From an uncultured Christensenellaceae bacterium (lineage in GTDB: Bacteria > Bacillota > Clostridia > Christensenellales > DTU072), in contig CAYXBO010000001.1 in the NCBI GenBank assembly GCA_964463195.1, forward strand, positions 1 to 47,060: a stretch of DNA of 47,060 nucleotides, read 5' to 3'. Positions 283 through 34,877 of the stretch are shown here, in pieces; position 1 is the stretch's first letter, and the number at the start of each line of letters is the position of its first letter. Both the position numbers and the translations under genes were made by a program. Below the pieces are notes generated by a model. The model was not told the origin of the DNA. It worked only from the letters and a program-made list of their open reading frames with translations, and did no database searches.

Positions 283-311
283 TTGACAACCGTATTTTAT
301 GGCGTTATAAT
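283..311 (+). promoter_or_regulatory. SigA-type promoter of first giant lipoprotein gene
   Basis: TTGACA (283-288) - 17 nt - TATAAT (306-311), a perfect consensus. GGAGG at 343-347 and ATG at 358 follow. Confidence 0.6.
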
Positions 312-357
312 GATTGTGCGTAAGTATGCGCAAATACTGTTTGGAGGTATTATTGCA

Positions 358-4275: not shown

Positions 4276-4321
4276 TAGCGTGTATAAAAAGGGTGAAGTG
4301 CGCCCTTTAAGAGGCAAAGGA

Positions 4322-21000: not shown

Positions 21001-23710
21001 CGACTGGGGCAGCTCGGAGGTCGTGTCCGACGGCATGATTCCCGGCGGAACGATTTACGTCAAGGCGGGAACGAGCGCAGCCGACACCGTTTCGCAGCTT
21101 CCGAAGGAAATCTACTACAACTTCGCGCCGAGCGCCGACGTTACCCCCGATTATTCGCCGGTGCCGCTTAAATTTGAAACCGTAAACTTCTTCAGAACGG
21201 GTTCTTATACCTTAAGAGCCGTTATGGGAAAGGTGAGTAAGGAATACAATATCCTCTTCAACGTCGAGGTTATCGACCCGAAGCTTTACGACATCAGAAC
21301 GGTAACCGACGCGGTAGGCACGGTAATAGACTTCAACGGGTACGACTTCGTGTTGGATACGCTTCCCGTTTCCGTCAACTCCTCGGGTAACCTCATGGCG
21401 GGGCTCGAGGACGATTGGCTGCCCGAATATATTGCGGCGTCTGACGGGAATTATATCCGCGTCAGCGGTATTTCCTATTCCGTCTCGGAGATGAAGGCGT
21501 ATCTTACCTGTACTTACGAATTCATTTCCGCTTCCGACGGTCCGAGAATTGCAGGACGCGCGGACGGCGAAAAGACCAGAGATTTCGTGTTTGAAGTGCC
21601 GCTCACATTAAATTCCACCGACAGACTAAGCGGCGACGCGGAGCTTTCCTCGGATACGGTTATAACCGAGCTCGGTCAGCCGATTCTGCTGTCTGCAATG
21701 CCGGTCGTACTGTCCGACGGAAGGGAATACAGTCTGTTCTGGGACGTTGCGGCGGGCGGAGTGGATACCAACGTGTCCGGAGAGTATTCGGTAATCGGAT
21801 ATCTTCTGGATTCCTTTAATTCGGTCAGAGAGTTCAGAGTAAAGGTCGTCGTTGCAAAACGCGAGCTGTTTCCGTCGGAATTCGGCGTTACCGGAACCAC
21901 AATCGACGGTCGCGTGGAGATTTCCTTCACCGGTCGCCGCGTCGACTGGCAATACAGAGTTCCTCAGAACTGTATAGACGAAAACGGCGACAGATACGCA
22001 CCCGTTCCTACGTTCACATATTCAGCCGACGGCGGACAGAGCTGGACTGCCATTCAGCCCGTGGCGGTCGGTACTTATCTCATGAAAATGACCGTGGACG
22101 ATACCAACGTGTTCGGCGAAAAGACCGTAACCCTCAGAATAAATAAGGCGCTTATAAACACCGACGACATCTCGTTCGCGGATACTACCGTCGTCTATAA
22201 CGGTATGCCGCAGCAGCCGACGGTTATAGGGCTTCCGCAGTCCGTCGGGTTCTCCTTCCGCATGACGCGCCGCACCGAATCGGGCGACACCGTGCTGCAT
22301 CCCGAGGGAGCGGTCAACGCTTACGTCTATACCGCAACGCTCATCATCGAAGAGAGCGACAGCTACGTGTTTACGGGTCTGAACTTCCGTACGGTAACCT
22401 TTACCGTAACCCGCGCCAACCCCGCGTACAGAGCCGCCGCAAGCGAAACCTATAACGGTCTCGACAGGCATATTTACGTGGAGGGTATGCCCGAATTCTT
22501 CACGGGCGGCATGACCGTGGTTTACACCTACACCAACACCGCGACCGGCGCCGTGACGACCAACAGAATAAGGAACGTCGGCGTATACAGATACACCATC
22601 GAAATACACGGCGGTATCAACTATTACGACAACAACCTGAGCGGAGAGTATTCCATAACTCAGGCGCCGCTTACCGTTGACGTGGGGAATATCGAGGTTC
22701 CCTATCTCGACGAAATGCTTCCTTTAAATTCCGGAGTGACGGTAACGGGCGTGGTCGGAGACGACGCGACCAAGGTGTTCGGCTCTGTGTTCGGTGAATT
22801 AACGCTCAGCTCGCCCGTGCGTCTCGACGGATATTCCGCGCCCGGCTCCTATCCGATATACGCAAGCGGACTGAGAAACAACAATTACCGCATCGAATAT
22901 ATCGACGACAGAGGAAACGACAGCGGCAATTACCGTTATAATATCGTGCTGCCCGAGGGGACGGTGGACGTCGCGACTGCTGCGGAAGCTGAGGGAATAA
23001 GCGCCGCGGACATGCTGAGAAAGCTGATTTCCGAGGCTAAAACCGGTGATTTGAAGCTGTATCTTACGGCAGGCGAATACGGCGACGTAACCCTTTCGGA
23101 CGCTTCCGTATCCCTCTATCTCTACGGCGAATACGACGGGGACGGAAAGCTTGCCACGGTTCTCGACAGCATGACGGTCAGCGGCGGAACGGTCAATCTC
23201 TACGCCTTGTCCTTTAAGGCTCTCGAAGGTATTGCGTCCGTCCGCCTCGAAGGAAAAGCGGGCAGCTTAATGCTCGACAGAGTGGAATTTGCGGCGAAGA
23301 CGAACGCAAGCGGAGCATGTTCGGTCGCTTCCGGTTCGGTGGGCGTTTACGCGGGGCAGGAATTTAAGGGCAACGTCACGGCGTACCGCATAAGCGTAGC
23401 ATACCGCTTTACCGGAATTTATATGGCGGGCGGAAGCCTTAACGTGGAAAATTCCCTGTTCGACGGTTGCGTAGCGGGTATAGAAGCTCAGTGCAAAAAC
23501 GTGAGCATAGCCGACAGTGAATTCGCGCATTCCACGCTCCACGCGCTGTATCTCACCAATGCGGAGACGACTGCAACAATCTCCGGCAACGAATTCCGCT
23601 ATAACGTGGCGGCAATCAAATACAATTTCCGTCTGAGCCTCTCCGGTAGCGCCGAGGTAATCAACGAAAACGTGTATTTCAAGAACAACGAAAATCTCAT
23701 TTCGCAGTAA
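12056..23710 (+). CDS. Giant surface lipoprotein (3884 aa): paralogous N-terminal module, DG/YY repeat insert, Ig-like-type repeats, MBG-like repeats, C-terminal parallel beta-helix-like region
   Basis: Uninterrupted 11.7-kb ORF starting 12 nt after the previous stop. MKKAKLFKNLILILMAAAILVLALFAC = lipobox LFA|C. MBG-like signature: ITQAPLTVDVGN...GDDATKVFG...GSYPIYASGLRNNNYRIEY. Beta-helix-like repeats: NVENSLFDGCVAGIEAQCKNVSIADSEFAHSTLHALYLTNAETTATISGNEFRYN. Confidence 0.9.
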   Translation: MKKAKLFKNLILILMAAAILVLALFACTTDTDDNGDPTGTDAPTYTREQILGKLSTSLDTSVKKLADERKTGTVTTTSEYSIIVEDLKYTVKYNAAIDYSHVENSRIYFKIYDDECTMTRIMAYYDAGTLYYENNGRRQKVAGFGTSGIFPLFLSLIENFDMSYSLGTIADIVSGTALENLIRSDNLKLYGAGENRTNISIQGIELDTLKTVPNGMIADFFSSFGTAFDAIGTELLGTSISDLGMLRIRSLDANYVEFYSENDVFDQMYFDFSGYMETLSPFSIKGGFKTVTGFNAVEVEALDDEVRYRSAIDEIALKNGFSAEQKAAYLEKYRYHDFYLGKGSFAGTVSFPSMNVTYDATLDYTLNYNDNAQNLMIFKIKDGGLDAAAAYYLDGKLYIDAGTLYDVFNAGFGLSYFNLPKAVVADFDLSAFLARVIDVLDNVVRESNVDVSEETKSRILKILVSKIESNGPVIGITVDKELIDALNQISSNPVDAANVAAYLGSVLGVSQTFIDNILSASVFDSMALVLSFNLATGGFATELLFNGSTVVRCDFEAVSATTEIYETVKGASVSAKPMADGSIGLYVTLDGKTYYLSADDGAVVGSDGVRAGSYFLEQKRFGIDGAVYSFAAPDLIAQHDNSKVGIFSLVQKKLSVDGVTYRIEDGRVLYETLSGSFDGQSLAIGNARYFVRDGKIYATSDGTDVLGKVENGVVTLGQTEYFTEDGDLFRIAGSIRANGDLVSVSVGEGIYIVATGKVMRDRGIYRSDEGIITLDGVNYYVNDGKIYQTVDFATETGAIDAENSKITVNGVDYYFDEARKEVGQHVFGDVIYPEEAGFVASGELKVAGMQSQDISKLLGAFIGDSLGLNTPIVLNATDRLKFDVKVAFGTDGEDGVYIKLTLKTRAGTETVLVEIATVDGSSDTVLIDFRLLDIRFRSPSSEVVGAFRRFAGEGSIFGEEDILSALIAALAEASVGYDSNGIQFAFDYHAVSGEVAVDPLLKLIGISNLSANGTVKVNYSPDMEEWKAMNADEGSFIEPKLENFPTIVDNYESIYDAEWIEEISFLNPELDGLTLKIPYDPETVKVVTGKNTYTPRASLLGQVLTYTLMLRGGENATKVAVEVVGNAIVFDSYEENPVHEKIAVRYDDGTEGEVKYTIKGFSEDLITEAGMAAAPYTVVIGEGKIAETVFEGVRVSVRSRELVKQNPENTDGYGSHYQSTVIGSTSVDPYAYALNNNSGLDLPEALNLRFWEDVINDDGTTAKAVILDEFCFDWEFDGKIDVSGGTFYARVARMYKKDSDAVYKVPDLVYEINVMPKIFSYVQFGEESGSGVYTVDVFDSSTYSIPARSREGYRLAVYFADGHYRIVGSSAMGLPTDAMFDGYLDMTLNWKYPQATHFALTGYPNPLGGETAQNTAVLAVDGLSSQEITARILEPTRNVREAGTVSGVVENVISDGTVLRDIRSFRYDNVSFGDSDYITVNPYATEALPDTITLNIEDRVTGVITKFTYPVERWLTDGDVIKEQDGKYLLKYPATEESWFRAVAVVGNGRVTDQITVRIYNPDAEYAAVTFDGYGENVLETVADAYSPLKLPKGFRIRLYDGTVLSYGDGDGARAFEWKVDFGTERESDVPMLTDSEYNAFRAFIEGRSRVYDPVWLTKGYSFENRDYSVVFTAHVPSDVNGSLEQAVEFTVNVRSLKPRGVDDGAASYLNTGNINRYGSDSAELLSALTEGGMSVLPIKMYAPQNMSEITYFFKVDWADNAAFESFTDGLKAVDGGAEYALSGTIFRDVAEKDQTFDVSFRTRSNEVLDSASFYFRSLSTALSEMITSEYKIDGGKKTLTVNLLEPYALKLLKGGAFGYALPSEYFAFTLSNIYIVFGDGSTGSYITDAQTAIAAYSANGKTFDAAVYDFGGGNTESSETEFEIRISDGSCEDYLSVKIVATPDVATVFTTRVSVEPYNDNGTLKYTIENGYAAGCPMSNEYTVTYNNSGVVVYSIDWTINDPLTNNGLGLVYNASEGVWYLPIANIKESGGSSTLTGVLPDGTEVQRVVSVNPKNIGGTAYTAQAAEGGYSAVNGTVNLANMYQLFEIMTVSDGNRVIDVAKLPSVIEPRPTATFAGSTVFTVSWQTENYFSVAANGAINGEKTDDGRYLIAHADISGYNGESQRVYLYINVAETEGIAAIRADGYDFRLEGDAFHLYLDPYKDNGAGGYDWTVKLPTAATVDLFGGSTSYAFASGLVYKYGDITVEQAVIDYKTLIKLTGDVETAIDGDTAELTLVLPDGFGVGVTLEVIPRIIAEDGVEVPFTTSDGSTGYRAGAYFVDPYNSGTYDIPTTIRVCFTDGASLDLNVEWNIVGANSFTVDYRGGEYAFTATLGGVGVDIGDAQVINLDVTVLDRSLKEDFEASSDGMTARNTGGTLVIERRFEDYIGARVSDIFTHAFVPSDFAHPEFPEAGDMSLAYPVLKIFGAGGIEAGDDAIVNGMAAVEFSAALSAGTVKGQPAKVEITTDRLTLVDDFGDFAASDGDRLYFNPFSKDSLKTEFRLRFAAETYDPETGWTEAPDKLLTFYTEKSSVGDSERSRRLIYWDDDMSAALSGVAGFAYGNEAKLVGRVENTVNYIYLQVKNVRLDLGYGSKESGMEPFDYVIDPLTPELVYTAYAEGKINGEWYSLGNVVLTWKESELLSGISFTGEPRKTTGVYLDAGVKGLDAVPITVNVYYLDRTVKKAFTDESGFTNYTEGNLYKIYDDGIVNFGGMTIDPVAKFESGRYVYPSNITAEFAAEASGAPQSVITAAVEKYGLRLKLTDTLWGLNGKSVTLAGTGSSPINLALLSGTVTRGETAFVSQFMETANQSINPFVFKMSVLDRAITATSITHALDIHMAFDGSDGHPDYSIDPYNITLPKSVVVTFGSGNDTTKRTYTWQNEYGELWTFNDESLQKLQREEIINGAVLASDMFATAYFTVNSETFEVTFPIIARVIDVNGDWGSSEVVSDGMIPGGTIYVKAGTSAADTVSQLPKEIYYNFAPSADVTPDYSPVPLKFETVNFFRTGSYTLRAVMGKVSKEYNILFNVEVIDPKLYDIRTVTDAVGTVIDFNGYDFVLDTLPVSVNSSGNLMAGLEDDWLPEYIAASDGNYIRVSGISYSVSEMKAYLTCTYEFISASDGPRIAGRADGEKTRDFVFEVPLTLNSTDRLSGDAELSSDTVITELGQPILLSAMPVVLSDGREYSLFWDVAAGGVDTNVSGEYSVIGYLLDSFNSVREFRVKVVVAKRELFPSEFGVTGTTIDGRVEISFTGRRVDWQYRVPQNCIDENGDRYAPVPTFTYSADGGQSWTAIQPVAVGTYLMKMTVDDTNVFGEKTVTLRINKALINTDDISFADTTVVYNGMPQQPTVIGLPQSVGFSFRMTRRTESGDTVLHPEGAVNAYVYTATLIIEESDSYVFTGLNFRTVTFTVTRANPAYRAAASETYNGLDRHIYVEGMPEFFTGGMTVVYTYTNTATGAVTTNRIRNVGVYRYTIEIHGGINYYDNNLSGEYSITQAPLTVDVGNIEVPYLDEMLPLNSGVTVTGVVGDDATKVFGSVFGELTLSSPVRLDGYSAPGSYPIYASGLRNNNYRIEYIDDRGNDSGNYRYNIVLPEGTVDVATAAEAEGISAADMLRKLISEAKTGDLKLYLTAGEYGDVTLSDASVSLYLYGEYDGDGKLATVLDSMTVSGGTVNLYALSFKALEGIASVRLEGKAGSLMLDRVEFAAKTNASGACSVASGSVGVYAGQEFKGNVTAYRISVAYRFTGIYMAGGSLNVENSLFDGCVAGIEAQCKNVSIADSEFAHSTLHALYLTNAETTATISGNEFRYNVAAIKYNFRLSLSGSAEVINENVYFKNNENLISQ

Positions 23711-25062: not shown

Positions 25063-28000
25063 ATGAATAGCATGGATAAAAAACCGCAGAACAGAATTAA
25101 AGCAATCTGTTTCACTGCGGTTTTTTTAACAGTCGCCGTCCTCCTGATTTTCTCTCCGGTAATTTTCGGAGGGACGGGCGATGAGACGATATTCCCCAAA
25201 GAGCTATATACCTTCAGCGAGGAGTATACCGAGCCGGACGGAACGGTTGCGGAGGTCTATGCCTCCGGCGACAGTGACTTCCGGTACATGCACGACGGCG
25301 ACGGATATATTCTCACGCCGGACGGCGAGGGATATCTCAGATACGCCGTAAACGACGGCGGGCGCGTCGAGGCTTCGGGACTCAGGTGGAACGCCTCGTC
25401 TCTTCAGAAATCCTTCGTAGACAAAATGACTTCGGAGGACTTGGTAAGGGAGAAAAACCCCGAGCTCGAAACCCTCCACGAGTACGACGGAGACCGTCCG
25501 GCGGTGCTTGCCGCAAGCCGCAAAAGTACCGTCTATAACGTGGTTATTTTTATTTCGTTTGCCGATAGCAGACTGACCGAGGCAGATATTCCTACCGAGA
25601 TTAGGGAAACCTTTTCAAATGATTGGGGAACCTATAACAGCCTTAAAAACTATTTTGCCGCTCAGACCGCGGGAGAAAAAGAGCTCGTCAATCTGTTTTC
25701 CTACGAGGACGGAAAGATATTCGTTTACCGGTCGCCGATGAGCAGAATTTATTATTCCTTTACCATAAGCGAGAGTACGAGAAGGAAGAGAGAGCGGGAG
25801 CTTCTCACCGCCGCCGCGGCGGCGTTTAACGCGGCGGAAAAAGAGGACGTTCCCGAAGACTGTCTCGACTCCGACGGCGACGGATACGCCGACGCGGTTT
25901 CCTTCGTAGTCCTCGACAGACCCGCGTCTACGCAAGGCTCTATTCTTTGGCCGCACAAATGGCACATGTCCTCTATCGGTGCAAGCTCGGAGGTGTGCGG
26001 CGTGCCTATAGGCGTTTATTCTCTCAATTTCACCGCCTCGCATTTCGTAACGTATGCGCACGAAACGGGTCACGTTCTCGGAGCGCCCGATTACTACGCA
26101 AGCACGAACAACTCCATGCCGCTCGTTGCGGAATGGGACGTTATGAGCATAACCCAGCGGTCTGGCAGTCCGGCAAACATGCTGGCTTACACCCGTAAAA
26201 AATACCTTGGACTGGAAGCCGGTGTTGTCGAGACCGTGCGCGCGGGGCAGACGGTGACTTTGAAGAACGCGGCTGACGTTCAGGGCGACGACCTTCTGGC
26301 AGTCAGAATACCGACGGACGCGGAAGGCGTTTACATATACGCCGAGTACCGTGCAAAAGCCGCGGCGGAAGAGTTTGACGGCGGGCAGAAGTCATACGGA
26401 CTGATTGTTTACCGCGTAAACGAAAACGTAGGCGGTTACGGCAACATAAACGCCAAAAGGATTACGGACTATTCCAATATAGAAGTGTTCGTCTACAGAA
26501 AGGGCGGCGCGGACAATCTGAGCGCGGTATATTCCGCAGCGCTCAACGGCAAGGATAAAACCGATTTCAATATTATAGGAAGCGGCACGGATACCCCTCT
26601 TACAGTAAACGCCCAAACCGTTCTCGACGCTTGCTTTTCCGACGTTGTGGAAAACGGTGACGGCACGGTTTCCTTTACCGTAAGCGGCGACGGAATAAAA
26701 TCCGACTACGACGGGGATTTTACGGTAAAAGGAGCAACCGCTTCAGACTGGACTTATTTCGCGAGAGCGGGCGAGCGGTTTACCGTAGAAATAGGACGCG
26801 CCCTGCCGACAGCTCAGGGCACGGTCAGAGCGTTTTACGATTACGATGCCGACGCGCTTACGGAAATTTCCTCTTCTGGGCTTTCTAAGACCTTCGAGGT
26901 GAAAGAGCACGCCGCAGAGACCGAGCCGATAACCGTCAGAATAAGGGACGGAATATCCTCATGTCAGATGAGGTTTGCGGTGATTACGGACGGAAGGAGC
27001 GCCCGCAGGGCAGAGATTAAAGAGGGAACGGATTCCGCCGTATTTTTGGGCGACGGTTGGGACGCAGTCACTGCCGTAGGGATATTCGGCGGCGAGGAAA
27101 AGGCGCTCGGAGAGGTCGAACCGCTTGCCTTCAACGCTTGGTCGGGAGCGGGGCTCAGGCGGGTGTATTTTAATATCGGAACGGAGCTTTACTGTTACGA
27201 CCTGACGGTTGCCGACCGCCCCGTTTATATGGAACCCGAGGTGGAGGAAATATCCCTTCTCGTCGGGGAAGCCTTACCCGAAACTCTTTCGTTAACGGTG
27301 CACTTCGCGTCGGGAGAGGAGAGACGGGTGGCGGTTTCGGATTGCGTGGTAAGCGGATTTGACAGCTCGGAAAAAGGGACGGTTACGGTGGTTCTTACCT
27401 ACCGCTCGGAGCTTGGCAACGCGGACAACGGTACGGTAAGCGCCGAGCTGAAGGTGTCTCTTGCAAGACCCGTCGGCATGCAAATAGTGGGCACGGAGAC
27501 GGAGTATGACGGGAAGAGTTATCCGACGGCGGAGCTCATTTCTTCGGACGGCACGGTGAATTTCGGAAGGACGGCGGTTTGCTATTATCTCGATTACGGA
27601 ACGGAAACCGTAGCGGTTTCGGCGGTCTACGGAGAGAGCTTTGAAAACGATTGGATTACCGTTGAGTTCGTAAACGGCGCGCCTTTGGAAAGCGGAATAT
27701 ACGGCGCCGCCGTTAAGGTTTACCGCAGGGCAAACGGAAGAGAAAGCATAGTGGCTGAGCTGGAAAACGTGGAGTTTAGGATACTGAAATCGATAAATAA
27801 GGCGACTATACTGATAGACGACAGCTTTAAGCAGGACGACGAAAGCTATGAGCTTTATCTAGAGGACAGGGATAACTGGGAGATATTCTGTTTAGTGGAA
27901 TACTTCGACGGAACCTCGGAAACGGTGCCGCTTACGGTCGGGGACGAGGATATTGTTTCGGGCGTACCGTATGAATTTGCGCCGGAATATCTGGGGCATC

Positions 28001-29535
28001 TTACGGAAGGAGTTTCTCTTGTTATCAGAAATACGGCGGTGGCTGTCGTAAGCTACGTTGCCGTAAGCTATTTCGGAGAACCGCTTGAGCTTGACCTCTG
28101 CGCAGTCATGGCTGACGGCACAGAAAGGGAGCTTTCGGACGGCGACTGGAGATATTCCGAGGGCTCGTGTTTTAACGAGTTCGGCGAAATCGGAGTGGCG
28201 CAGAATTTCAGGGTGGAGCTCACGGAGAGCAGCGGACTTATCAGGAAGGGCGGTTCCGTTTCCTCGCAGATATCCGTTACCCTTGTGGACGGCTTGAAGC
28301 GTATCGAGCTTCTCGCAGATTGTTACAAAAGAGATTACGAATACGGCGACGAGAATTTTGTGCTGAGATATCTTAAGACGGTATACTACAGCGGAAGGAC
28401 GGAGATAATATCTCCGACCGCAGAGGAAATAACCGTTTCGGGCTTCGACTCTACGGTTATAGTTGGTACGGAATACTCCCACACCCAGACCGTAACCGTC
28501 GGATATTCGGACAAAACTGCGGAGGCGGAAATAGAAATAATCAATCCCGTAATGTCGGTGAGGCTTGAAGGACTGCGCTTTGACGGCGAGGCTGACGCGT
28601 ATTTAAAGGATACGGCTTCCGACCGTCCATTTGAGCTGAGACTTGTCTACAAAAACGAAGCCGCCGAAACGGTGGAATGCGGAGTGGACACTCCGGAAAA
28701 CTACGATATCGGAGTTTTGGGACGGCATACGGCGACCTTTAACGTCCGGAAGGAAAACCGGATAATCTGCCGTACGACCGTGACTATTCTTAATTATACC
28801 TCAAACGTAAGACAAGCCTCGCTTGTCGATAACTCGACGGGAGAGGAACCCGAAGTCGTTTCGTTAAGGTACGGAGAAGCGTTGAACCTCGAGAGGTTTT
28901 CGGTACGGTTTTCCACGGGAAACGAAGCATTTTCATTAAGCCTTAACGATAAAGTTGCGAATACTTTAACGAAGAATTATTCCTTAAAGCGCGAAGAGGG
29001 CGGCGCGACCTCGGTAGTATTGGGAGTGCCCGTTTTACGCGACCAGAACGGAAAAGCCGCGTCATTTACCGTTCAGTTAAGCGTTGCGCCTAAAGTGAAC
29101 GAAAGAATACTTGCCGTCTCGTCGCAGGCTTCAGGCGTGGAAATAAAATACGGCAATAAAATCATAGTCCTGCAAAATCAGATGACGGTCGGGGAGTTGA
29201 CGGAGGCTTTGATATCCGATTATCTCCTTGTAAGCTATAAGGGCGGAACGGGCTCTCAGCTTGCGGGCGGATACGCCGGAGTCGGGAAAAACAGAGTTTT
29301 CCATACAGTCGAGCTTAAGAATGCCGAAGGAACGCTCGTCGACGTCTATAAGGTTTGCTTGCTCGGCGACTTTAGCGGGGACGGAAGGGTTTCTTCGGAG
29401 GATATTTCCGTCTTTGCCGAGAGGATACTGGAAAACAGCACGGAGATTTACGACTGCGAGGCGGCGGGCGGCAGTTTAAATCTGAAATCCTTCGTTAACA
29501 TGCTGAAGGCGCAAAAGGAGGGTGAGCAGATATGA
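25063..29535 (+). CDS. M6-type (immune inhibitor A-like) zinc metalloprotease with multiple Ig-like repeats and a C-terminal dockerin-like module (1490 aa)
   Basis: N-terminal signal/anchor KAICFTAVFLTVAVLLIFSPVIFGG. M6-domain hallmarks in order: VYNVVIFISFADS, SLKNYFAAQTAGEKEL, ILWPHKWHM, HETGHVLGAPDYY (HExxH at nt 26059-26073). Big_3-like repeats such as VSGFDSSEKGTVTVVLTY. Last 57 aa: GDFSGDGRVSSEDISVFAERIL plus a degenerate second loop. ATG 25072 is an alternative start. Confidence 0.8.
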   Translation: MNSMDKKPQNRIKAICFTAVFLTVAVLLIFSPVIFGGTGDETIFPKELYTFSEEYTEPDGTVAEVYASGDSDFRYMHDGDGYILTPDGEGYLRYAVNDGGRVEASGLRWNASSLQKSFVDKMTSEDLVREKNPELETLHEYDGDRPAVLAASRKSTVYNVVIFISFADSRLTEADIPTEIRETFSNDWGTYNSLKNYFAAQTAGEKELVNLFSYEDGKIFVYRSPMSRIYYSFTISESTRRKRERELLTAAAAAFNAAEKEDVPEDCLDSDGDGYADAVSFVVLDRPASTQGSILWPHKWHMSSIGASSEVCGVPIGVYSLNFTASHFVTYAHETGHVLGAPDYYASTNNSMPLVAEWDVMSITQRSGSPANMLAYTRKKYLGLEAGVVETVRAGQTVTLKNAADVQGDDLLAVRIPTDAEGVYIYAEYRAKAAAEEFDGGQKSYGLIVYRVNENVGGYGNINAKRITDYSNIEVFVYRKGGADNLSAVYSAALNGKDKTDFNIIGSGTDTPLTVNAQTVLDACFSDVVENGDGTVSFTVSGDGIKSDYDGDFTVKGATASDWTYFARAGERFTVEIGRALPTAQGTVRAFYDYDADALTEISSSGLSKTFEVKEHAAETEPITVRIRDGISSCQMRFAVITDGRSARRAEIKEGTDSAVFLGDGWDAVTAVGIFGGEEKALGEVEPLAFNAWSGAGLRRVYFNIGTELYCYDLTVADRPVYMEPEVEEISLLVGEALPETLSLTVHFASGEERRVAVSDCVVSGFDSSEKGTVTVVLTYRSELGNADNGTVSAELKVSLARPVGMQIVGTETEYDGKSYPTAELISSDGTVNFGRTAVCYYLDYGTETVAVSAVYGESFENDWITVEFVNGAPLESGIYGAAVKVYRRANGRESIVAELENVEFRILKSINKATILIDDSFKQDDESYELYLEDRDNWEIFCLVEYFDGTSETVPLTVGDEDIVSGVPYEFAPEYLGHLTEGVSLVIRNTAVAVVSYVAVSYFGEPLELDLCAVMADGTERELSDGDWRYSEGSCFNEFGEIGVAQNFRVELTESSGLIRKGGSVSSQISVTLVDGLKRIELLADCYKRDYEYGDENFVLRYLKTVYYSGRTEIISPTAEEITVSGFDSTVIVGTEYSHTQTVTVGYSDKTAEAEIEIINPVMSVRLEGLRFDGEADAYLKDTASDRPFELRLVYKNEAAETVECGVDTPENYDIGVLGRHTATFNVRKENRIICRTTVTILNYTSNVRQASLVDNSTGEEPEVVSLRYGEALNLERFSVRFSTGNEAFSLSLNDKVANTLTKNYSLKREEGGATSVVLGVPVLRDQNGKAASFTVQLSVAPKVNERILAVSSQASGVEIKYGNKIIVLQNQMTVGELTEALISDYLLVSYKGGTGSQLAGGYAGVGKNRVFHTVELKNAEGTLVDVYKVCLLGDFSGDGRVSSEDISVFAERILENSTEIYDCEAAGGSLNLKSFVNMLKAQKEGEQI

Positions 29536-30257
29536 AAAAGGCGATTTTGGCGATAATTCTCATACTGTGCGCAGTCGTCGCTCTTTCCGGCTGCACAACG
29601 GTTACCGAAATTGCTCTCGTAGAAAACGGCGTAAAAACCGAATATTCGGTGGACGAGGAGTTCCCGAGAGAGGCGCGGATTTCCGTAAAATACAAAAACG
29701 GCAAAACCGAAACCGTAAATATCCGAGCGTCCGACGTGGAAGGTTTCGACACCGGAATAAGCGGAACGCGCACGATGACGGTAAATTACGGCGGCAAAAG
29801 TCTGCCCGTTGAATATAATGTTAAGGGGCGGGTAAACACCCGCGCAAGGGTTAAGGCGGACGTAGACGTAGGCGACGGGGTCTTGAAAATCACTTTGAGC
29901 CTTAGCGGGCTTGACACTTCGGGCGCTCCGTTGTATGCTATTAAAATAAAGACGGCTTATTCTGCCGACAAGCTGGAATACGTCGGGGCGGTAGCCGCGG
30001 CGGACGGCTGGACGGTGGAGACGGTCGCGACTGCGGGTTCGGTTTCGGCACTGTTTTACAATGCGGACGCCGAAAATCCGATAAACGCCGACTGCAAGTT
30101 TGCGGAAATAACCTTCGGGACGTTATCGCAGGCGGACGGAACGGAATTCTATTTTTCCGGCGGCTCGGCAGGCTATGAGGAAATAGACGTATCCGACGGG
30201 GAAGGAATTTGGTATATGCCCGCGTTCGGTATCGGTTATTATGTGATAGAGGATTGA
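29532..30257 (+). CDS. Lipoprotein with Ig-like domain and cohesin-like domain (241 aa)
   Basis: ATGA overlap with the protease stop. MKKAILAIILILCAVVALSGC = lipobox LSG|C. Big_3-like segment GFDTGISGTRTMTVNYGGKSLPVEYNV. Cohesin-like pattern: VKADVDVGDGVLKITLSLSGLDTSGAPLYAIKIKTAYSADKLEYVGAVAAADGWTVETVATAGSVSALFYNADAENPINADCKFAEITFGTL. Confidence 0.7.
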   Translation: MKKAILAIILILCAVVALSGCTTVTEIALVENGVKTEYSVDEEFPREARISVKYKNGKTETVNIRASDVEGFDTGISGTRTMTVNYGGKSLPVEYNVKGRVNTRARVKADVDVGDGVLKITLSLSGLDTSGAPLYAIKIKTAYSADKLEYVGAVAAADGWTVETVATAGSVSALFYNADAENPINADCKFAEITFGTLSQADGTEFYFSGGSAGYEEIDVSDGEGIWYMPAFGIGYYVIED

Positions 30258-31903
30258 TGGCACTGAAAATTTTAACGCCCGACGAAATGTGGCGCGGTTT
30301 CAAAGAGGACGGTTCCTTTGCCGTTATAGATGAAAAAGTCAGCGTAAAAGCCGATTTTATCACCGAACACCTTCTGACCTTCGTTTCCGAAACGGTAGAC
30401 GACGGCGATATTACCGTGTCCGTCAGGTGCCTTTTGCCGGAAAATTATTCCGCGGTTGCGTTGGTTATCGAGGATTATAAAAAATCTGCCGACGAAGAGT
30501 TTATTGCGGAGCTTTTGAAAAGCGGGCTTGCGGTGGCAATTCCCGATTATTCCGACAGATATAAAAGCGGAACCTCGTTTACTCCTCTCACCGCGTACCT
30601 TGCGGAGGACACCCGCGGCGACAGACTCTACGAGGTCAACGAATCCGCAAAGGACAGCTGCCAGTTCATCTATGCCAAGATGGTGCGGAACACCGCAACC
30701 CTCATCAAGAACAGGTTCGGAGCGGACAAATTCCTGTTCGTTTCCGTAGGAGATTCTGCGGAGGTCGCCGTGACCTGCGCCGCAACGGACAAACGTGCCG
30801 TAGGTCTTCTGATGCTGAACGGGTTCGGATATTACGAGTTTAACGATTTGAACGTTTTCGGAGAAACCAAAGAAGCGGTTTACGACGAAAAGCTTTTGAG
30901 CTGGATGTCCGGAGTTTCCGCGGTCGCGTATACGCAGTACGTCCGCTGTCCCGTGCTTATCGCTGTCGGGACCAACAGCAACCGCTGCGATATGGACAGG
31001 CTGTCCGGCTTTACCTCGCGAATGAACGACGCGACGGTAAGCGTCGTTCTCTCGGCGGGCGCCAAAAAAACCGTCGATTACGACGGGTTTAAAACGGTAA
31101 AGAACTGGATTACGAGAATACTTTCCGGTTTAACTCTTCCGAGAATTCCGGATTCGAGGCTGTTCGTGAGCCGCGACGGCACGGTTTATACAGAGGTTGC
31201 GGTCGACACCTCGGCGATAATCGAAAAGGTGGAGGTTTATTATTCGACAGGGGAGTATAACCGCCGTTTCAGGGGCTGGCGTAAGGCGGCTTGTATGTCC
31301 ATTGCCCACGGAGAATATATGGCGACTATCCCGCTCTGCTCGGAAACCGACCCCGTTTTCGCTTACGCGCAGGTGACCTATATCGACGGAACCACGCTAT
31401 CTTCCTACGTTTCCCATATCGAAGCTAAGGAACAGAAGGTTAAGCCCACGGCGGTGCCGTCGAGGCATATTGTCGTGGAAAGCGGGCGTTCCTTCGACTG
31501 CTTCGCCATTGACAGAACGGCGGATATCGTCGTTTCGGAAGAAAAAATCGCCACTTCAAGCAGCTTAGGGCTCAAAGGGGTTGCGGCAAAAAAGGGCGGG
31601 CTTCTGACCTTCGTCATTGCCGAAGCCGCGAAAACAGCCGACAGCGAGATGCTTCAGATAGACGTTTTCAGCGAGAAGGGAGTAAGCGTCGGCATAGAGC
31701 TGGAAGCCTTGGAGGACGGAGCCGTCGAAACCTATACCGCCTATTGTCAGGTGCTCGGTTCCACTCTCTGTTTTTCTCCGGTAAGACTTACCGCCGTAGA
31801 CTTCAAAAACGCTGACCTTAAACCGCTCGAGGGCTGGCACAACGTCAGAAGTCTCAAGGTTTTAACGCCGACGGTTGCAGTAGGGAATATAATTTTCGTA
31901 TGA
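30257..31903 (+). CDS. Hypothetical cytoplasmic protein (~548 aa), possibly alpha/beta-hydrolase-like N-terminal half plus beta-sandwich-like C-terminal half
   Basis: ORF 30209-31903. Start placed at ATG 30257 (TGATG 1-nt overlap with the upstream stop), giving MALKILTPDEMWRGF. No signal peptide or TM. FLFVSVGDSAEVAV resembles a degenerate nucleophile elbow. The product call is weak. Confidence 0.6.
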   Translation: MALKILTPDEMWRGFKEDGSFAVIDEKVSVKADFITEHLLTFVSETVDDGDITVSVRCLLPENYSAVALVIEDYKKSADEEFIAELLKSGLAVAIPDYSDRYKSGTSFTPLTAYLAEDTRGDRLYEVNESAKDSCQFIYAKMVRNTATLIKNRFGADKFLFVSVGDSAEVAVTCAATDKRAVGLLMLNGFGYYEFNDLNVFGETKEAVYDEKLLSWMSGVSAVAYTQYVRCPVLIAVGTNSNRCDMDRLSGFTSRMNDATVSVVLSAGAKKTVDYDGFKTVKNWITRILSGLTLPRIPDSRLFVSRDGTVYTEVAVDTSAIIEKVEVYYSTGEYNRRFRGWRKAACMSIAHGEYMATIPLCSETDPVFAYAQVTYIDGTTLSSYVSHIEAKEQKVKPTAVPSRHIVVESGRSFDCFAIDRTADIVVSEEKIATSSSLGLKGVAAKKGGLLTFVIAEAAKTADSEMLQIDVFSEKGVSVGIELEALEDGAVETYTAYCQVLGSTLCFSPVRLTAVDFKNADLKPLEGWHNVRSLKVLTPTVAVGNIIFV

Positions 31904-32442
31904 AAGCAAACGTTAAGAACATCCTTATAACCTTACTCGTTTTCGTCATCGTAACCTCGGTGGCGGTTATAGTTACGGGAATTCTGTTCGCCATCGTTCC
32001 GATAAACGGAGAGAGTATGCACCCGACCGTAAGAGACGGGGATTTCGTTTTCATACTGAAGGTTGGGTCGTTCAAAAGGGGCGACGTCGTGGTTATAGAG
32101 AACCCTAACGCGGATGGGAACGCCGAAAGACTCCTGAAAAGGATTATCGCCGTCGAAGGCGATACGGTTGAGACGCGCTTCGTTGACGGTGAGGAAAGGT
32201 ATTTCGTAAACGGCGAAATGCTGGACGAGCCCTACGTGAACAACGGGCAGGAGGCGAAGGGAAGACAGCCTATGATTACCGTTCCCGAGGGGCGCTTTTA
32301 CTACCTCGGCGACAACAGAAGGGTGTCCGCCGACAGCTATTCGTCCTCGGTAAGCGGCTCGAAGCTCGGCTATATGGACCATATCGTCGGAAAAGTGCTT
32401 TTTAAGGGCAATTTCAAGGAGTTCAGTTTTGCCGGAGTTTAA
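31900..32442 (+). CDS. lepB: Type I signal peptidase (S26 family)
   Basis: ATGA overlap with the upstream gene. N-terminal TM. Catalytic Ser box INGESMHPTV, Lys box LLKRIIAVEGDTV and box E YYLGDNRRVSADS, all in canonical order. Confidence 0.85.
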   Translation: MKANVKNILITLLVFVIVTSVAVIVTGILFAIVPINGESMHPTVRDGDFVFILKVGSFKRGDVVVIENPNADGNAERLLKRIIAVEGDTVETRFVDGEERYFVNGEMLDEPYVNNGQEAKGRQPMITVPEGRFYYLGDNRRVSADSYSSSVSGSKLGYMDHIVGKVLFKGNFKEFSFAGV

Positions 32443-32503: not shown

Positions 32504-34753
32504 ATGGCTAAATTTAAAAGGCTGGTGCCTTATTTTTTTTACGCCGCGGCGTTGTTTGCTTTTTCGGCGGCGGAATCGACCCTTCCCGTGCGCCCGTTTG
32601 CGCTCGGCTTTTTTCTCGCTCTCGTCTATTCGAGGCAGAACGTCATAATTCTCGCGCCGGTATACGCCGTCGCCGCGATAGTCTTCGATTTGTCCGTCGC
32701 CTCCGCGGTTTACGCAACGGTTCCCGTAGCCGTTGTCGTCGGAGCGTCGTTTTTCCATTATAAGCTCAACCGTCCCATGAATATCGCCGCGCTTAACGCT
32801 TACGTTCTTCTGTCCGCGGCGCCCATGTTCGCGTTTATAAGTCCCACCGTGGAATCCGTCCTTCTGACGTCCGCGACGGTCGTCGGCAACCTGTTCACCG
32901 CAAACGTTGCCGTCATTATGCTTTACGCTGTATCGGTAAGGGGGTTAAGATACAGACTGTCGCCGCAGGAGGTCATGTCGGTCATGCTTTTTGCGGCGGC
33001 TCTTTCCCTCAGCCTCGTAAGAATAAACGTTTTCGGATTTCCGCTTCTGCCGCTCGCGGCAGTTCCCGTAATTGCGCTGTCCCTTTTCGGCGGCGGAATT
33101 TTCCCGCTCGTTTCGGGAGCGGTAATCGGCGCGGGAGCCGCTGTCGGAGCGCTCGATATGGCTTTCGTCGGAGTGTATTTTCTAATGGGGTGCGGCGCTG
33201 CGGCAGGCTTTAAGCATCCCGTTTTCGCCGCTCTCTTTACCTTCGGCGCCTTTTCCGTCGGGCTGTTCCTTCAGGGGCTTATAGAGCAGTATCTCTATCT
33301 CGTTTCGGCTGGAGTGGGCACGGTCGTATATATCGCGTCCTATAAATTCACCTCTCCGTCGCTTGCAGCTGTTGCCGCCGTTCAGAGAAGGGAACAGGGC
33401 GGTCGGTTCCTCATCAACAGAACGAGGCTCGACGTGGCGCAAAAGCTTTCCAATCTGTCGACGGTATTTTCCGATATGGAAAACACTCTTAAGGAGGACG
33501 CGGAGCCGGCAGCTTCTGCGGGAAGCCTGAGAGCCGTGGACGGAGTAAAGCGCGACACCTGCGCAAAATGCGCGCGAAGAACGGAGTGCGAGGCAGCTTT
33601 AGGGGGTGACACTTCCGTGGTCGTAGCTGATTTGGTCGACGCCGCGGAGAGAAGGGGCAAGGCGACTATTCTCGATACCACGCCGTTTCTGTCCTCCCGT
33701 TGCGGCAACATAAATATCATGATTGACAGCGTCAACCGCTGGGTGGAAAGAGTAAGAAACCGTGACGACGCAGAGAGAAAACAGCGCGGAATGGAGGACA
33801 TGCTGTCCCGTCAGATGGGAAGCGTTTCGGGTATTTTAGAAAACCTCAGGCAGGACGTAGAACAGCCGGTGTCTTACGATATGCGCCTTGAAAGAAAGCT
33901 CATTGACGAATTGCAATACAGAGACGTCAGAGCCGTCGAAGCAATAGTATATAAGGAGAAGGACGGGCTCTGCCTGACCCTCATCGTTGCCGCGGGCGAC
34001 GAGAACAAACCTCAGCTTTTGGATACCGTTAATAAAGTATTGGGAGCCCGAATGTGCGAAAACCGACGGGTTCAGACCATTAAGGGTAACGTAACTCTCA
34101 ACTTTATAAAGGAACCCGCGTACTCCGTGGTATACGGCTCCTACGGAGTTCCGAAGGACGGAAAAGTGTCGGGAGACGTATCGGACGCGGTTTCTCTCGG
34201 GAGGGGGAAAGTGATGATAATTCTATCCGACGGAATGGGCAGCGGCAAAAAAGCCAACAGGAATTCCCTGCTTGCCGTCAGAATGATTGAAGGCTTCTAT
34301 AAGGCGGGCTTCAGCCACGAGGCGGTGACGGACGCCGCTTCCGGACTTCTGACCCTCAGGGGCGGAGAGGAGTTCAACGCCGTCGACCTCGCGGTCGTCG
34401 ACCTTGAGACGGCGGAGACCGACTTTATTAAGCTCGGCGGGCGGGAAGGCTATATTTTAACCGGCGGCACCGTCGATGAAGTGCCCTGCGGTTCCCTTCC
34501 GATAGGTATCGTCGAGGACGTAACGCCAAGGATTGTCAGGCGCACGCTTTCCGACGGCGACGTGTTCGTTATGATGTCCGACGGAGTGGCTGATATTATG
34601 GATAACGAGAAGGTTACCGCAATTTTAACCTCGGAAAATTCCTTAAATCCCAACCTTATCGCCAAGGATTTGGTGTCTAACGCCTTGGCTCTCGGCGGTC
34701 ACGAGGACGATATGAGCTGCGTCGTCGGACGCATTTTCCGCCGCGCCGGTTGA
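32504..34753 (+). CDS. spoIIE: Stage II sporulation protein E (PP2C-type phosphatase with polytopic N-terminal membrane domain)
   Basis: About 330 aa of repeated hydrophobic helices, then a PP2C domain with VMIILSDGMGSGKKANRNS, FNAVDLAVVDL, GSLPIGIV and VFVMMSDGVADI, typical of SpoIIE. Confidence 0.85.
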   Translation: MAKFKRLVPYFFYAAALFAFSAAESTLPVRPFALGFFLALVYSRQNVIILAPVYAVAAIVFDLSVASAVYATVPVAVVVGASFFHYKLNRPMNIAALNAYVLLSAAPMFAFISPTVESVLLTSATVVGNLFTANVAVIMLYAVSVRGLRYRLSPQEVMSVMLFAAALSLSLVRINVFGFPLLPLAAVPVIALSLFGGGIFPLVSGAVIGAGAAVGALDMAFVGVYFLMGCGAAAGFKHPVFAALFTFGAFSVGLFLQGLIEQYLYLVSAGVGTVVYIASYKFTSPSLAAVAAVQRREQGGRFLINRTRLDVAQKLSNLSTVFSDMENTLKEDAEPAASAGSLRAVDGVKRDTCAKCARRTECEAALGGDTSVVVADLVDAAERRGKATILDTTPFLSSRCGNINIMIDSVNRWVERVRNRDDAERKQRGMEDMLSRQMGSVSGILENLRQDVEQPVSYDMRLERKLIDELQYRDVRAVEAIVYKEKDGLCLTLIVAAGDENKPQLLDTVNKVLGARMCENRRVQTIKGNVTLNFIKEPAYSVVYGSYGVPKDGKVSGDVSDAVSLGRGKVMIILSDGMGSGKKANRNSLLAVRMIEGFYKAGFSHEAVTDAASGLLTLRGGEEFNAVDLAVVDLETAETDFIKLGGREGYILTGGTVDEVPCGSLPIGIVEDVTPRIVRRTLSDGDVFVMMSDGVADIMDNEKVTAILTSENSLNPNLIAKDLVSNALALGGHEDDMSCVVGRIFRRAG

Positions 34754-34809: not shown

Positions 34810-34877
34810 TACTTATTATAATGTCAATAATATGCTCGTGCGTTATGTGCGCGCGAGGTTCCATAAAGGGAGTGTCT

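What the first reader, a model, noticed from the sequence alone, without database searches (positions are those of the whole stretch)
29365..30210. Candidate cognate dockerin-cohesin pair encoded across an ATGA gene overlap, in a non-cellulosomal context
Seen: the protease ends with GDFSGDGRVSSEDISVFAERIL, which fits the DxNxDGxVxxxD calcium loop plus helix of a dockerin repeat. A degenerate second repeat follows (DCEAAGGSLNLKSFVNMLK). The next gene, whose ATG overlaps the protease stop, encodes a lipobox lipoprotein. Its C-terminal ~120 aa follow the cohesin strand pattern: V.VDVGDGVLKITLSLSG......YAIKIKTAYSADKLEYVG.....GW.......GSVSALFYNA....I..DCKFAEITF. No glycoside hydrolase or scaffoldin is present nearby. 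Established: cohesin-dockerin pairs assemble cellulosomes, and non-cellulosomal cohesin- and dockerin-like modules have been noted bioinformatically but are rarely assigned a function. Inference: a minimal one-cohesin, one-dockerin device that parks an M6 protease on a membrane lipoprotein.
Basis: partly seen in the sequence, partly recalled or inferred. Interest (0 to 1): 0.75.

Follow-up and report, generated by a model that had tools for sequence, protein, structure and literature searches.

The report
Protease dockerin beside lipoprotein cohesin
A large secreted metalloprotease ends in a small calcium-loop docking module, and the overlapping next gene encodes a membrane lipoprotein carrying the matching receptor fold, so this looks like a two-gene device that tethers the protease to the cell surface, conserved across several lineages of Clostridia.

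Summary
Binding itself was not tested.

The C-terminal ~140 aa of the lipoprotein (29532-30257) are a cohesin. The isolated module passes Pfam's Cohesin cutoff (25.8 bits against 24.1), and so do all six orthologues (best E 6.4e-9). Its profile retrieves CBM3-X2-cohesin scaffoldins from 1.84 billion proteins. The AlphaFold model's best PDB matches are cohesins (2jh2, TM 0.71-0.74).

The window's own protease tail misses the Dockerin_1 cutoff (15 bits against 22.9). It is nevertheless homologous to tails that pass: the nearest orthologue scores 23.1 bits, and the Christensenellales-type relative P0021 scores 35.2 bits over both repeats. The first calcium loop is intact. The second has lost all four ligand positions but is invariant among the close orthologues.

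The pairing goes well beyond this window. All 19 Firmicute-type M6 relatives carry the tail. In all 8 divergent lineages examined, a lipobox/Big_3/β-module lipoprotein gene follows directly, usually overlapping by 4-10 nt. In most, an uncharacterised ~548-aa protein and a signal peptidase I follow.

Dockerin-bearing peptidases, single-cohesin anchors and a minimal 1:1 cohesin-dockerin pair are all known. The lipid anchor, the dedicated M6 cargo and the decayed second repeat appear to be new.

The parts
25063..29535 (+). Gene for a 1490-aa M6-like metalloprotease: N-terminal hydrophobic signal/anchor (aa 10-40), catalytic domain, about 1000 aa of uncharacterised, probably Ig-like, repeats, and a C-terminal dockerin-like tail
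   Evidence: ORF. TIGR03296 E = 2.9e-29 over aa 161-436. Homologues named M6 family metalloprotease. Hydrophobic segment.
25543..26370 (+). M6-type catalytic domain (aa 161-436), with HETGHVLGAPD zinc motif at aa 333-343 (nt 26059-26091) and a conserved DSDGDGYAD loop at aa 269 (nt 25867)
   Evidence: Pfam Peptidase_M6 is only 13.8 bits.
29365..29451 (+). Dockerin repeat 1: calcium loop D1436-F-S-G-D-G-R-V-S-S-E-D1447, then helix ISVFAERIL and linker
   Evidence: Pfam Dockerin_1 profile positions 2-29, 15.2 bits. Orthologues read GDANGDGKVSSED and reach 23.1 bits. Helix predicted at residues 24-36 of the 69-aa tail construct.
29452..29532 (+). Decayed dockerin repeat 2: D1464-CEAAGGSLNLKSFVNMLK, then a charged end. 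Ligand positions 1/3/5/12 read C/A/G/S instead of D/N/D/D, and the helix is retained
   Evidence: Aligns in register with canonical second repeats of P0017, P0019 and P0021. Helix at residues 53-66 of the tail construct. Invariant among the six close orthologues.
29515..29535 (+). Translational-coupling junction: Shine-Dalgarno AAGGAGG (29515-21) inside the last protease codons, and ATGA start/stop overlap (29532-35)
   Evidence: ATGA also seen in L001 and L006. Gene-call coordinates give 4-10 nt overlaps in L002, L004, L005, L008, L009, L010, L015 and L016. In L007 and L017 the genes abut without overlapping.
29532..29594 (+). Lipoprotein signal peptide with lipobox L-S-G-C (Cys21)
   Evidence: Cys21 is invariant in six orthologues. 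Lipoboxes are present in all distant homologues.
29634..29801 (+). Big_3 Ig-like spacer domain (aa 35-90)
   Evidence: Pfam PF07523, 27.9 bits against cutoff 21.2.
29832..30257 (+). Cohesin module (aa 101-241) of the lipoprotein
   Evidence: Pfam Cohesin 25.8-25.9 bits against cutoff 24.1. PDB profile hits 1g1k and 2vn5. Foldseek top hits are cohesins. Scaffoldins retrieved. hhalign 90.6%.
30257..31903 (+). Conserved 548-aa cassette protein of unknown function with no signal peptide. Its start overlaps the lipoprotein stop (TGATG)
   Evidence: No Pfam, NCBIfam or PDB match. Conserved in L002, L004, L006, L008, L009, L010 and L016. A faint DLH hit in L009.
31900..32442 (+). Signal peptidase I (S26). 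Its start overlaps the stop of the 548-aa gene (ATGA). It is the last gene of the coupled four-gene unit
   Evidence: Pfam Peptidase_S26, E = 1.1e-28. Junction. Conserved in L002, L004, L006, L008, L009, L010 and L016.

Best explanation
This is a dedicated, divergent cohesin-dockerin pair that tethers an M6-type metalloprotease to the outer face of the cytoplasmic membrane.

Shown:
- The small protein is a lipobox lipoprotein with a Big_3 spacer and one cohesin module.
- The protease ends in a dockerin-family tail with one intact calcium loop and a decayed, but strongly conserved, second repeat.
- The two genes are translationally coupled (Shine-Dalgarno inside the protease's last codons, ATGA overlap).
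- The pair, mostly with a 548-aa protein and a signal peptidase I, is conserved across divergent Clostridia.

Inferred:
- After Sec export, the lipoprotein is acylated at Cys21.
- The protease's N-terminal signal is removed, plausibly by the co-encoded signal peptidase I, or else stays as a second anchor.
- The C-terminal dockerin binds the cohesin 1:1. The ~1000-aa repeat region then acts as a stalk that holds the N-terminal catalytic domain away from the membrane. This would be a non-covalent, sortase-independent C-terminal anchor.
- With only one canonical calcium site and two dissimilar repeats, the dockerin probably has a single binding mode.
For: Cohesin:
- Pfam PF00963 above cutoff for the module.
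- The module profile finds PDB cohesins 1g1k and 2vn5, E about 4e-4.
- In an exhaustive search of 1.84 billion proteins it finds CBM3-X2-cohesin scaffoldins.
- An HMM built only from scaffoldin cohesins hits this ORF, and no other in the window.
- hhalign probability 90.6%.
- AlphaFold model (pLDDT 70) has best PDB matches 2jh2, 2vo8 and 6kgf, all cohesins.

Dockerin:
- Repeat 1 matches Dockerin_1 in all six orthologues.
- P0009 scores 23.1 bits, P0023 23.0 bits and P0021 35.2 bits over both repeats. P0019 scores 22.3 bits over profile positions 1-51.
- The family profile's top PDB hit is a dockerin (2y3n_B, E = 5.9e-7), with two-repeat alignments to 6kg9, 6kge, 2ccl_B and 1ohz_B.
- The tail model is loop-helix-linker-loop-helix, and its 14 best PDB matches are all dockerins.

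Pairing:
- Overlapping genes.
- One tail and one cohesin per locus.
- The tail is present in 19 of 19 Firmicute-type relatives and absent from 17 of 17 non-Firmicute-type relatives, most of which carry a T9SS sorting domain at the same end.
- A lipobox/Big_3/β-module protein lies directly downstream in 8 of 8 lineages.

Precedent:
- An adjacent 1:1 cohesin-dockerin gene pair binds in vitro (PMC13487519).
- Dockerin-peptidases and single-cohesin wall anchors are known (PMC12997984).
Against: - No interaction evidence of any kind.
- The window's own tail scores 15 bits, below the 22.9-bit cutoff. It also matches EF-hand models.
- The second loop lacks all canonical calcium ligands.
- The tail model has pLDDT 60, and its Foldseek E-values are 0.4-2.
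- The last ~33 residues of the cohesin model are below pLDDT 50.
- The most distant lipoprotein modules fail the Pfam cutoff: L008 16.8 bits, L010 18.7 bits, L009 no hit.
- The protease has its own N-terminal hydrophobic segment of about 30 aa that could already anchor it.
- The rest of the genome could not be searched for other cohesins or dockerins.
Confidence: 0.62

Rival explanations
1. Both modules are genuine cohesin and dockerin relatives, but they are not each other's partner. The dockerin docks onto another cohesin-bearing protein elsewhere in the genome, or the lipoprotein cohesin collects other dockerin-bearing proteins. The adjacency then reflects co-regulation of one surface system.
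For: Cohesin-dockerin specificity cannot be read from sequence. Other proteins with canonical dockerin tails exist in Clostridia MAGs (L011-L013). Only 47 kb of this genome was available.
Against: There is one cohesin and one tail per locus in about 107 kb scanned. Overlapping or abutting genes and strict co-occurrence hold in 8 of 8 lineages over large divergence. The tail's unusual second repeat and the cohesin module are both clade-specific, as expected for a private pair.
Confidence: 0.15
2. The tail is only a structural EF-hand-like calcium site, and the lipoprotein's β-sandwich is a cohesin-fold domain used for something else, such as a protease maturation factor, an inhibitor or an adhesin. 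The conserved coupling would then reflect a different protein-protein or functional link.
For: The tail also hits EF-hand models, and EF-hand proteins interleave with dockerins in PDB searches. The second loop is decayed. The window's tail is below the Pfam cutoff. Non-cellulosomal cohesin-like modules mostly have no assigned function (as cited in PMC13487519).
Against: Homologous tails in the same protein family are full two-repeat dockerins above the cutoff (35.2 bits). The best structural matches of both models are chains taken from cohesin-dockerin complexes. The tail sits at the extreme C-terminus, after a β-strand plus GD junction, as in enzyme-borne dockerins. Non-Firmicute relatives carry a different surface-sorting module at the same position.
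Confidence: 0.18
3. The resemblances are chance: a DxSxDG loop and a generic β-rich C-terminus.
For: The window's tail alone gives E = 0.025-0.067. The full-length lipoprotein did not report Cohesin.
Against: All orthologues and distant homologues give the same hits. The reciprocal searches return scaffoldins and dockerins.
Confidence: 0.02

Closest known systems
Single-cohesin cell-surface anchoring proteins: C. thermocellum OlpA and OlpC (PDB 3ul4, 4dh2), and Limousia cSca5 (PMC12997984)
   Same: One cohesin on a cell-envelope-anchored protein captures a dockerin-bearing enzyme directly. 3ul4_A and 4dh2_A are among the structural matches of the lipoprotein model, and their dockerin chains are among the tail's matches.
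   Different: cSca5 is anchored by an LPxTG sortase signal (PMC12997984). From my own knowledge, OlpA and OlpC are anchored by SLH repeats, and they serve many enzymes. Here the anchor is an N-terminal lipid (lipobox), the cargo appears to be one specific protease, and the two genes are translationally coupled.
Minimal ClcC/ClcD system of Cellulosilyticum lentocellum (PMC13487519)
   Same: A single cohesin and a single dockerin encoded by adjacent genes (Clole_2599 and Clole_2598), forming a 1:1 heterodimer. That pair was shown experimentally.
   Different: There the cargo is a GH5 cellulase and the cohesin protein carries a CBM. Here the cargo is an M6-like protease, the cohesin protein is a lipoprotein with a Big_3 spacer, no CAZyme lies in the window, and the dockerin has a decayed second repeat.
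Clostridium perfringens non-cellulosomal cohesin-dockerin toxin complexes (PDB 2jh2, 2vo8, 2w1n, 2o4e, 2ozn)
   Same: These are the best structural matches of the lipoprotein model (2jh2, TM 0.71-0.74). The modules are used outside cellulose degradation, in a host-associated Clostridium.
   Different: There the cohesins and dockerins sit on large glycoside hydrolases that bind one another. There is no lipoprotein anchor and no protease cargo.
Dockerin-bearing peptidases of cellulosome-like systems (R. flavefaciens, PMC2930009; Limousia mucinolysome, PMC12997984)
   Same: Peptidases carrying C-terminal dockerins are incorporated into surface complexes.
   Different: Those genomes have many dockerins and multi-cohesin scaffoldins. 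Here the pair looks private. No paper in the searchable library mentions a dockerin together with 'immune inhibitor A' and 'metalloprotease'.
M6 peptidases with a C-terminal T9SS sorting domain in the non-Firmicute relatives (P0028-P0043)
   Same: Homologous catalytic domain, with a C-terminal module that serves surface targeting or retention.
   Different: The module and the mechanism differ: Por_Secre_tail and the type IX system, against dockerin-cohesin.

Membership tests
Cohesin (Pfam PF00963) | Profile score at or above the curated gathering score (24.1 bits) | tested here: met
   Isolated module 25.8-25.9 bits, E = 1.3e-5. All 6 orthologues hit, best E = 6.4e-9. The full-length protein did not report the hit. 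Distant homologues are below the cutoff: 16.8 bits, 18.7 bits and no hit.
Cohesin (Pfam PF00963) | β-sandwich (jelly-roll) cohesin fold | tested here: met
   AlphaFold2 model with pLDDT 70, strands from 106 to 238. Foldseek best hits 2jh2, 2vo8, 6kgf, 5nrk and 1g1k, E = 3e-7 to 2e-5, target TM up to 0.74. The last ~33 residues are low-confidence.
Cohesin (Pfam PF00963) | Reciprocal homology to scaffoldin cohesins | tested here: met
   The module profile retrieves CBM3-X2-cohesin scaffoldins P0045-P0049 and PDB 1g1k and 2vn5. A scaffoldin-only HMM hits the lipoprotein at E = 3e-4. hhalign 90.6%, E = 1.3e-6.
Cohesin (Pfam PF00963) | Binds a dockerin | not testable with these tools
No multimer tool is available.
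Dockerin type I (Pfam PF00404) | Profile score at or above the gathering score (22.9 bits) | tested here: not met
   The window tail scores 15.0-15.2 bits, over profile positions 2-29 only. Homologous tails: P0009 23.1, P0023 23.0, P0021 35.2 (all met); P0019 22.3 (just under); P0012, P0014 and P0011 no hit.
Dockerin type I (Pfam PF00404) | First F-hand: calcium loop D1-x-(N/D/S)3-x-D5-G6-x-(I/V)8-x-x-x-D12 followed by a helix | tested here: met
   D1436-F-S-G-D-G-R-V-S-S-E-D1447, then ISVFAERIL. Helix predicted.
Dockerin type I (Pfam PF00404) | Second F-hand with calcium ligands (duplicated repeat) | tested here: not met
   The segment is in register with the second repeats of P0017, P0019 and P0021, but positions 1/3/5/12 read C/A/G/S. 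The helix is retained, and the segment is invariant in close orthologues.
Dockerin type I (Pfam PF00404) | Dockerin fold (two loop-helix motifs joined by a linker) | tested here: inconclusive
   The model has pLDDT 60.5 and the right topology. Its 14 best PDB matches are dockerins, but E = 0.4-2 and TM is about 0.5. The family profile against PDB has a dockerin as top hit, E = 5.9e-7, with EF-hand proteins interleaved.
Dockerin type I (Pfam PF00404) | Calcium-dependent binding to a cohesin | not testable with these tools
   Needs a binding assay or a multimer prediction.
Peptidase family M6 (InhA-like) | HExxHxxGxxD zinc motif and a match to the M6 domain model | tested here: inconclusive
   HETGHVLGAPD at aa 333-343. 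TIGR03296 E = 2.9e-29, but 102.8 bits is below the 110.8 cutoff. Pfam PF05547 is only 13.8 bits. Relatives P0025 and P0026 carry PF05547 and are named M6 by NCBI.
Bacterial lipoprotein (signal peptidase II substrate) | n-region, h-region and a lipobox [LVI][ASTVI][GAS]C within the first ~35 residues | tested here: met
   MKK-AILAIILILCAVVA-LSGC, Cys21. Cys is invariant in orthologues. LASC, VSGC, LSAC, FVAC, VAGC and LTAC in the distant homologues. No SignalP or LipoP tool was available.
Cellulosome (multi-enzyme scaffoldin system) | A scaffoldin with two or more cohesins, plus dockerin-fused glycoside hydrolases | tested here: not met
   There is a single cohesin and a single dockerin, and no GH among the window's large ORFs. 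The rest of the genome was not available.

The most novel reading that the evidence does not exclude
The four translationally coupled genes (M6 protease with dockerin, cohesin lipoprotein, 548-aa protein, signal peptidase I) form a previously undescribed, widely conserved surface-display cassette of Clostridia, including Christensenellales. In it a private cohesin-dockerin pair replaces sortase or SLH anchoring. A dedicated signal peptidase frees the N-terminus. A single-calcium dockerin, with a re-purposed second repeat, fastens the C-terminus to a lipid-anchored cohesin, so that the catalytic head is held out on a long repeat stalk. This would define a new cohesin-dockerin type with a lipoprotein anchor.
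Probability: 0.35. Interest if true: 0.7.

Novelty: new variant of a known kind. Interest (0 to 1): 0.55.

Why it matters
Most cohesin- and dockerin-like modules outside cellulosomes have no assigned function. This case offers a clean, testable one. The partners are named by gene order, there are only two of them, and the same pair recurs across gut-associated Clostridia lineages, including Christensenellales-type MAGs.

If binding is confirmed, three things follow:

- A lipid-anchored cohesin would join the known ways in which Gram-positive bacteria hold proteins at their surface.
- Dockerins with only one calcium site could be shown to remain functional.
- There would be a small orthogonal cohesin-dockerin pair for protein engineering.

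It would also place an InhA-like protease, together with giant adhesin-like lipoproteins, at the cell surface of poorly known gut anaerobes.

Tried and rejected
1. AlphaFold of a fused chain (tail, (G4S)6 linker, cohesin) with nine paired orthologues (A4). No interface prediction was therefore possible.
2. The search for homologous proteins with the 62-aa tail profile returned nothing, because only 2 word candidates were found. One search was wasted.
3. The genome-contig scan with the tail profile used the pattern V[CVI]LxGD[AG][ND]GD. That pattern does not match the window's own GDFSGD, nor the P0014-type tails. It returned only three unrelated 676-755-aa proteins with canonical dockerins. 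It could not count dockerins in this genome.
4. An exact look-up of P0001 to name the source assembly found nothing on record.
5. Single-sequence PDB searches found nothing useful for the cohesin module, the 548-aa protein or the protease N-terminal 546 aa.
6. The HphA_C Pfam hit on the lipoprotein (19.6-20.4 bits against cutoff 31) was judged a weak β-sandwich cross-hit, seen in only 1 of 6 orthologues.
7. A mirror-tree or covariation analysis of tail against cohesin was considered and dropped. About 12 pairs is too few, and the analysis would be confounded by phylogeny.


Full report
**1. Observation**

The window encodes a 1490-aa protein on the + strand (25063-29535). Its last 56 residues read GDFSGDGRVSSEDISVFAERILENSTEIYDCEAAGGSLNLKSFVNMLKAQKEGEQI (G1435 = nt 29365).

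The next ORF (29532-30257, 241 aa) starts at the ATG of an ATGA overlap. An AAGGAGG Shine-Dalgarno lies at 29515-29521, inside the last protease codons. The ORF opens with a signal peptide and lipobox (MKKAILAIILILCAVVALSGC, Cys21).

**2. The lipoprotein carries a cohesin**

- Full-length, the protein reported only Big_3 (aa 35-90, 27.9 bits) in Pfam.
- Trimmed to aa 96-241, it matches Pfam Cohesin at 25.8 bits, above the 24.1 cutoff, E = 1.4e-5.
- Six orthologues (69-78% identical) exist. All six modules match Cohesin, best E = 6.4e-9. Two carry a precomputed PF00963 hit on the full-length protein.
- A profile of the six modules finds the C. cellulolyticum scaffoldin cohesins 1g1k and 2vn5 in the PDB, E about 4e-4.
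- In an exhaustive HMMER search of 1.84 billion representatives, the profile finds itself, then one 250-aa relative. After that it finds long proteins with 3-7 matched stretches. Pfam shows these to be CBM3-X2-cohesin scaffoldins.
- The reverse test also works. An HMM built only from 21 scaffoldin cohesins hits the lipoprotein ORF (E = 3e-4) and no other ORF in the window.
- hhalign of a 12-member family alignment against those cohesins gives 90.6% probability, E = 1.3e-6.
- An AlphaFold2 model (pLDDT 70; the last ~33 residues are below 50) has cohesins as its best PDB matches. These are the non-cellulosomal C. perfringens modules 2jh2 and 2vo8 (target TM 0.71-0.74, E about 3e-7), followed by cohesins taken from type I complexes.

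I regard the cohesin assignment as established at the level of homology and fold.

**3. The protease tail is a divergent dockerin**

The window's own tail matches only the first half of Dockerin_1, at 15.0-15.2 bits against a cutoff of 22.9 (E = 0.025). It also weakly matches EF-hand models. By the curated criterion it fails.

The wider family tells a different story.

- The closest orthologue reads GDANGDGKVSSED and reaches 23.1 bits.
- More distant M6 relatives have tails scoring 23.0 bits (P0023) and 35.2 bits over both repeats (P0021).
- P0019 scores 22.3 bits over profile positions 1-51 of 57.

In alignments of these tails, the window's segment YDCEAAGGSLNLKSFV falls in register with canonical second repeats such as FDYNGDGKQNLTDLV. 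The 'degenerate second repeat' is thus a true, decayed F-hand. The ligand positions 1/3/5/12 read C/A/G/S instead of D/N/D/D, so a second calcium site is unlikely. Even so, the segment is invariant among the close orthologues, which points to a retained role.

A 15-member family profile has a dockerin as its best PDB hit (2y3n_B, E = 5.9e-7). It aligns across both repeats to 6kg9, 6kge, 2ccl_B and 1ohz_B. EF-hand proteins are interleaved, as expected for this superfamily.

The AlphaFold model of the tail is only moderately confident (pLDDT 60.5), but it has loop-helix-linker-loop-helix topology. Its 14 best PDB matches are all dockerin chains, although at non-significant E-values of 0.4-2.

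**4. The pairing is ancient and strict**

Among relatives of the protease, a tail HMM scores 35-104 bits on all 19 Firmicute-type proteins (P0008-P0026). It scores nothing meaningful on the 17 non-Firmicute-type ones, most of which end in a T9SS sorting domain.

I examined the gene neighbourhoods of eight divergent lineages:

- the window clade (L001, L002, L004-L007);
- P0012 (L010);
- P0014 (L008);
- P0019 (L009);
- P0025 (L014/L015, a Christensenellaceae MAG);
- P0018 (L016);
- P0026 (L017, a Christensenellales MAG).

In every case the next gene encodes a 227-267-aa protein with a lipobox, a Big_3-like domain and a ~125-140-aa β-module. The gene usually overlaps the protease gene by 4-10 nt; in L007 and L017 the two genes abut without overlapping.

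In most loci a ~548-aa protein and a signal peptidase I follow. In this window all four genes are joined by start/stop overlaps (ATGA, TGATG, ATGA).

A six-frame scan of the window and four related loci (1147 ORFs) found exactly one tail and one cohesin module per locus.

**5. Mechanism**

Shown: both products are extracytoplasmic, the lipoprotein should be lipid-anchored, and the genes are translationally coupled.

Inferred: the dockerin binds the cohesin 1:1 and fastens the protease's C-terminus to the membrane surface.

- The catalytic domain lies near the N-terminus (aa 161-436; HETGH at 333).
- It is followed by about 1000 residues of repeat domains, which would act as a stalk.
- The protease has an N-terminal hydrophobic segment (aa 10-40) and no lipobox. 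Either it is cleaved, plausibly by the co-encoded signal peptidase I, or the protein is tethered at both ends.
- The asymmetry of the two repeats suggests a single binding mode.

**6. Comparison with known systems**

- Non-cellulosomal cohesins and dockerins are widespread and mostly unassigned (as cited in PMC13487519).
- C. perfringens uses them to assemble toxin complexes; these are the best structural matches here.
- Single-cohesin surface anchors exist: OlpA and OlpC (3ul4, 4dh2) and the sortase-anchored cSca5 (PMC12997984).
- Dockerin-bearing peptidases are known (PMC2930009, PMC12997984).
- A minimal adjacent 1:1 pair, ClcC/ClcD, was recently shown to bind (PMC13487519).

The principle is therefore known. 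What appears new:

- the lipoprotein anchor;
- the dedicated M6-like protease cargo (no paper in the searchable library links dockerins with 'immune inhibitor A' and 'metalloprotease');
- the translationally coupled cassette with its own signal peptidase;
- the one-calcium dockerin variant;
- the breadth of conservation.

I rate it a new variant of a known kind.

**7. Limits**

- The rest of the genome could not be scanned, so 'one cohesin, one dockerin' holds only for the loci seen.
- The structural models are of moderate confidence.
- The M6 assignment rests on a sub-cutoff but highly significant domain match, plus the zinc motif.

Noticed in passing
P0014-P0018, P0020, P0022, P0024-P0026 (C-termini); absent from the window protein: Many relatives carry a further 20-40-aa extension after the dockerin, with a shared motif P-x-P-[VLI]-x-x-[ML]-A-[EN]-x-[FL]. 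It is followed by charged residues and in several relatives by a Cys near the C-terminus (for example SSPLPVAELFVCEYRGKEDETC and PSPVNKMAELLTAPVSNRKKESLCE). It looks like an unrecognised C-terminal signal or clasp. Its function is unknown.
   Followed up: no
window 283-3723, 4280-12043, 12056-23710, 34821-37139: Giant surface proteins of 1146, 2587 and 3884 aa, plus a 772-aa protein, surround the cassette. Two have clear lipoboxes (LVAC, LTGC), and the 3884-aa one has LFAC. Pfam sees only Big_3, Big_4, MBG and beta-helix fragments. A giant protein (up to 8339 aa in L014) precedes the protease in most of the related loci examined.
   Followed up: partly
window 32504-34753; also L006, L010, L016: The cassette lies directly upstream of spoIIE in several divergent lineages. 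This could hint at a sporulation-linked or simply ancient syntenic position. It was not analysed further.
   Followed up: no
L016 14951-16414 and L017 14211-15692: In the two Christensenellales-type loci, a GH20 (beta-hexosaminidase-like) gene lies next to the cohesin lipoprotein gene. The 'no glycoside hydrolase nearby' feature is therefore not universal for the family.
   Followed up: no
window 25867-25893 (protease aa 269-277, DSDGDGYAD): A second DxDxDG calcium-loop-like motif lies inside the catalytic domain. It is conserved in relatives (FDVNDDGYFDS in P0014, DADGDGSVDS in P0019). It gave weak secondary hits to the tail HMM. It is probably a structural calcium site of the M6 domain, not a dockerin.
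   Followed up: partly
window 30257-31903: The 548-aa cassette protein has no signal peptide and no Pfam, NCBIfam or PDB-sequence match. The only hint is a faint dienelactone-hydrolase hit in one homologue. Yet it is conserved and translationally coupled between the lipoprotein and the signal peptidase. A cytoplasmic protein in the middle of a secretion cassette is unexplained.
   Followed up: partly
L001 10001-10702 and L006 366-1067: Gene callers started the lipoprotein 8 codons downstream (233 aa) in these contigs. The ATGA-overlapping ATG (MKK...) is conserved in the DNA, so those database entries probably lack the true N-terminus.
   Followed up: yes
window 3694-3723: The 1146-aa ORF ends ...GNSGDTSGDGDAE*. 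This is a lone, truncated DxSxDG-like loop with no following helix. It did not score with the tail HMM.
   Followed up: yes
window 40078-41004 and 40932-42038: Two tandem, slightly overlapping genes for CAAX/Rce1-like intramembrane proteases lie downstream. They are followed by tadA-like deaminase, pth and mfd genes.
   Followed up: no
L016 1-1841: A CBASS-like defence pair (SMODS/DncV-like nucleotidyltransferase plus a SAVED effector) lies upstream of the cassette in this contig.
   Followed up: no
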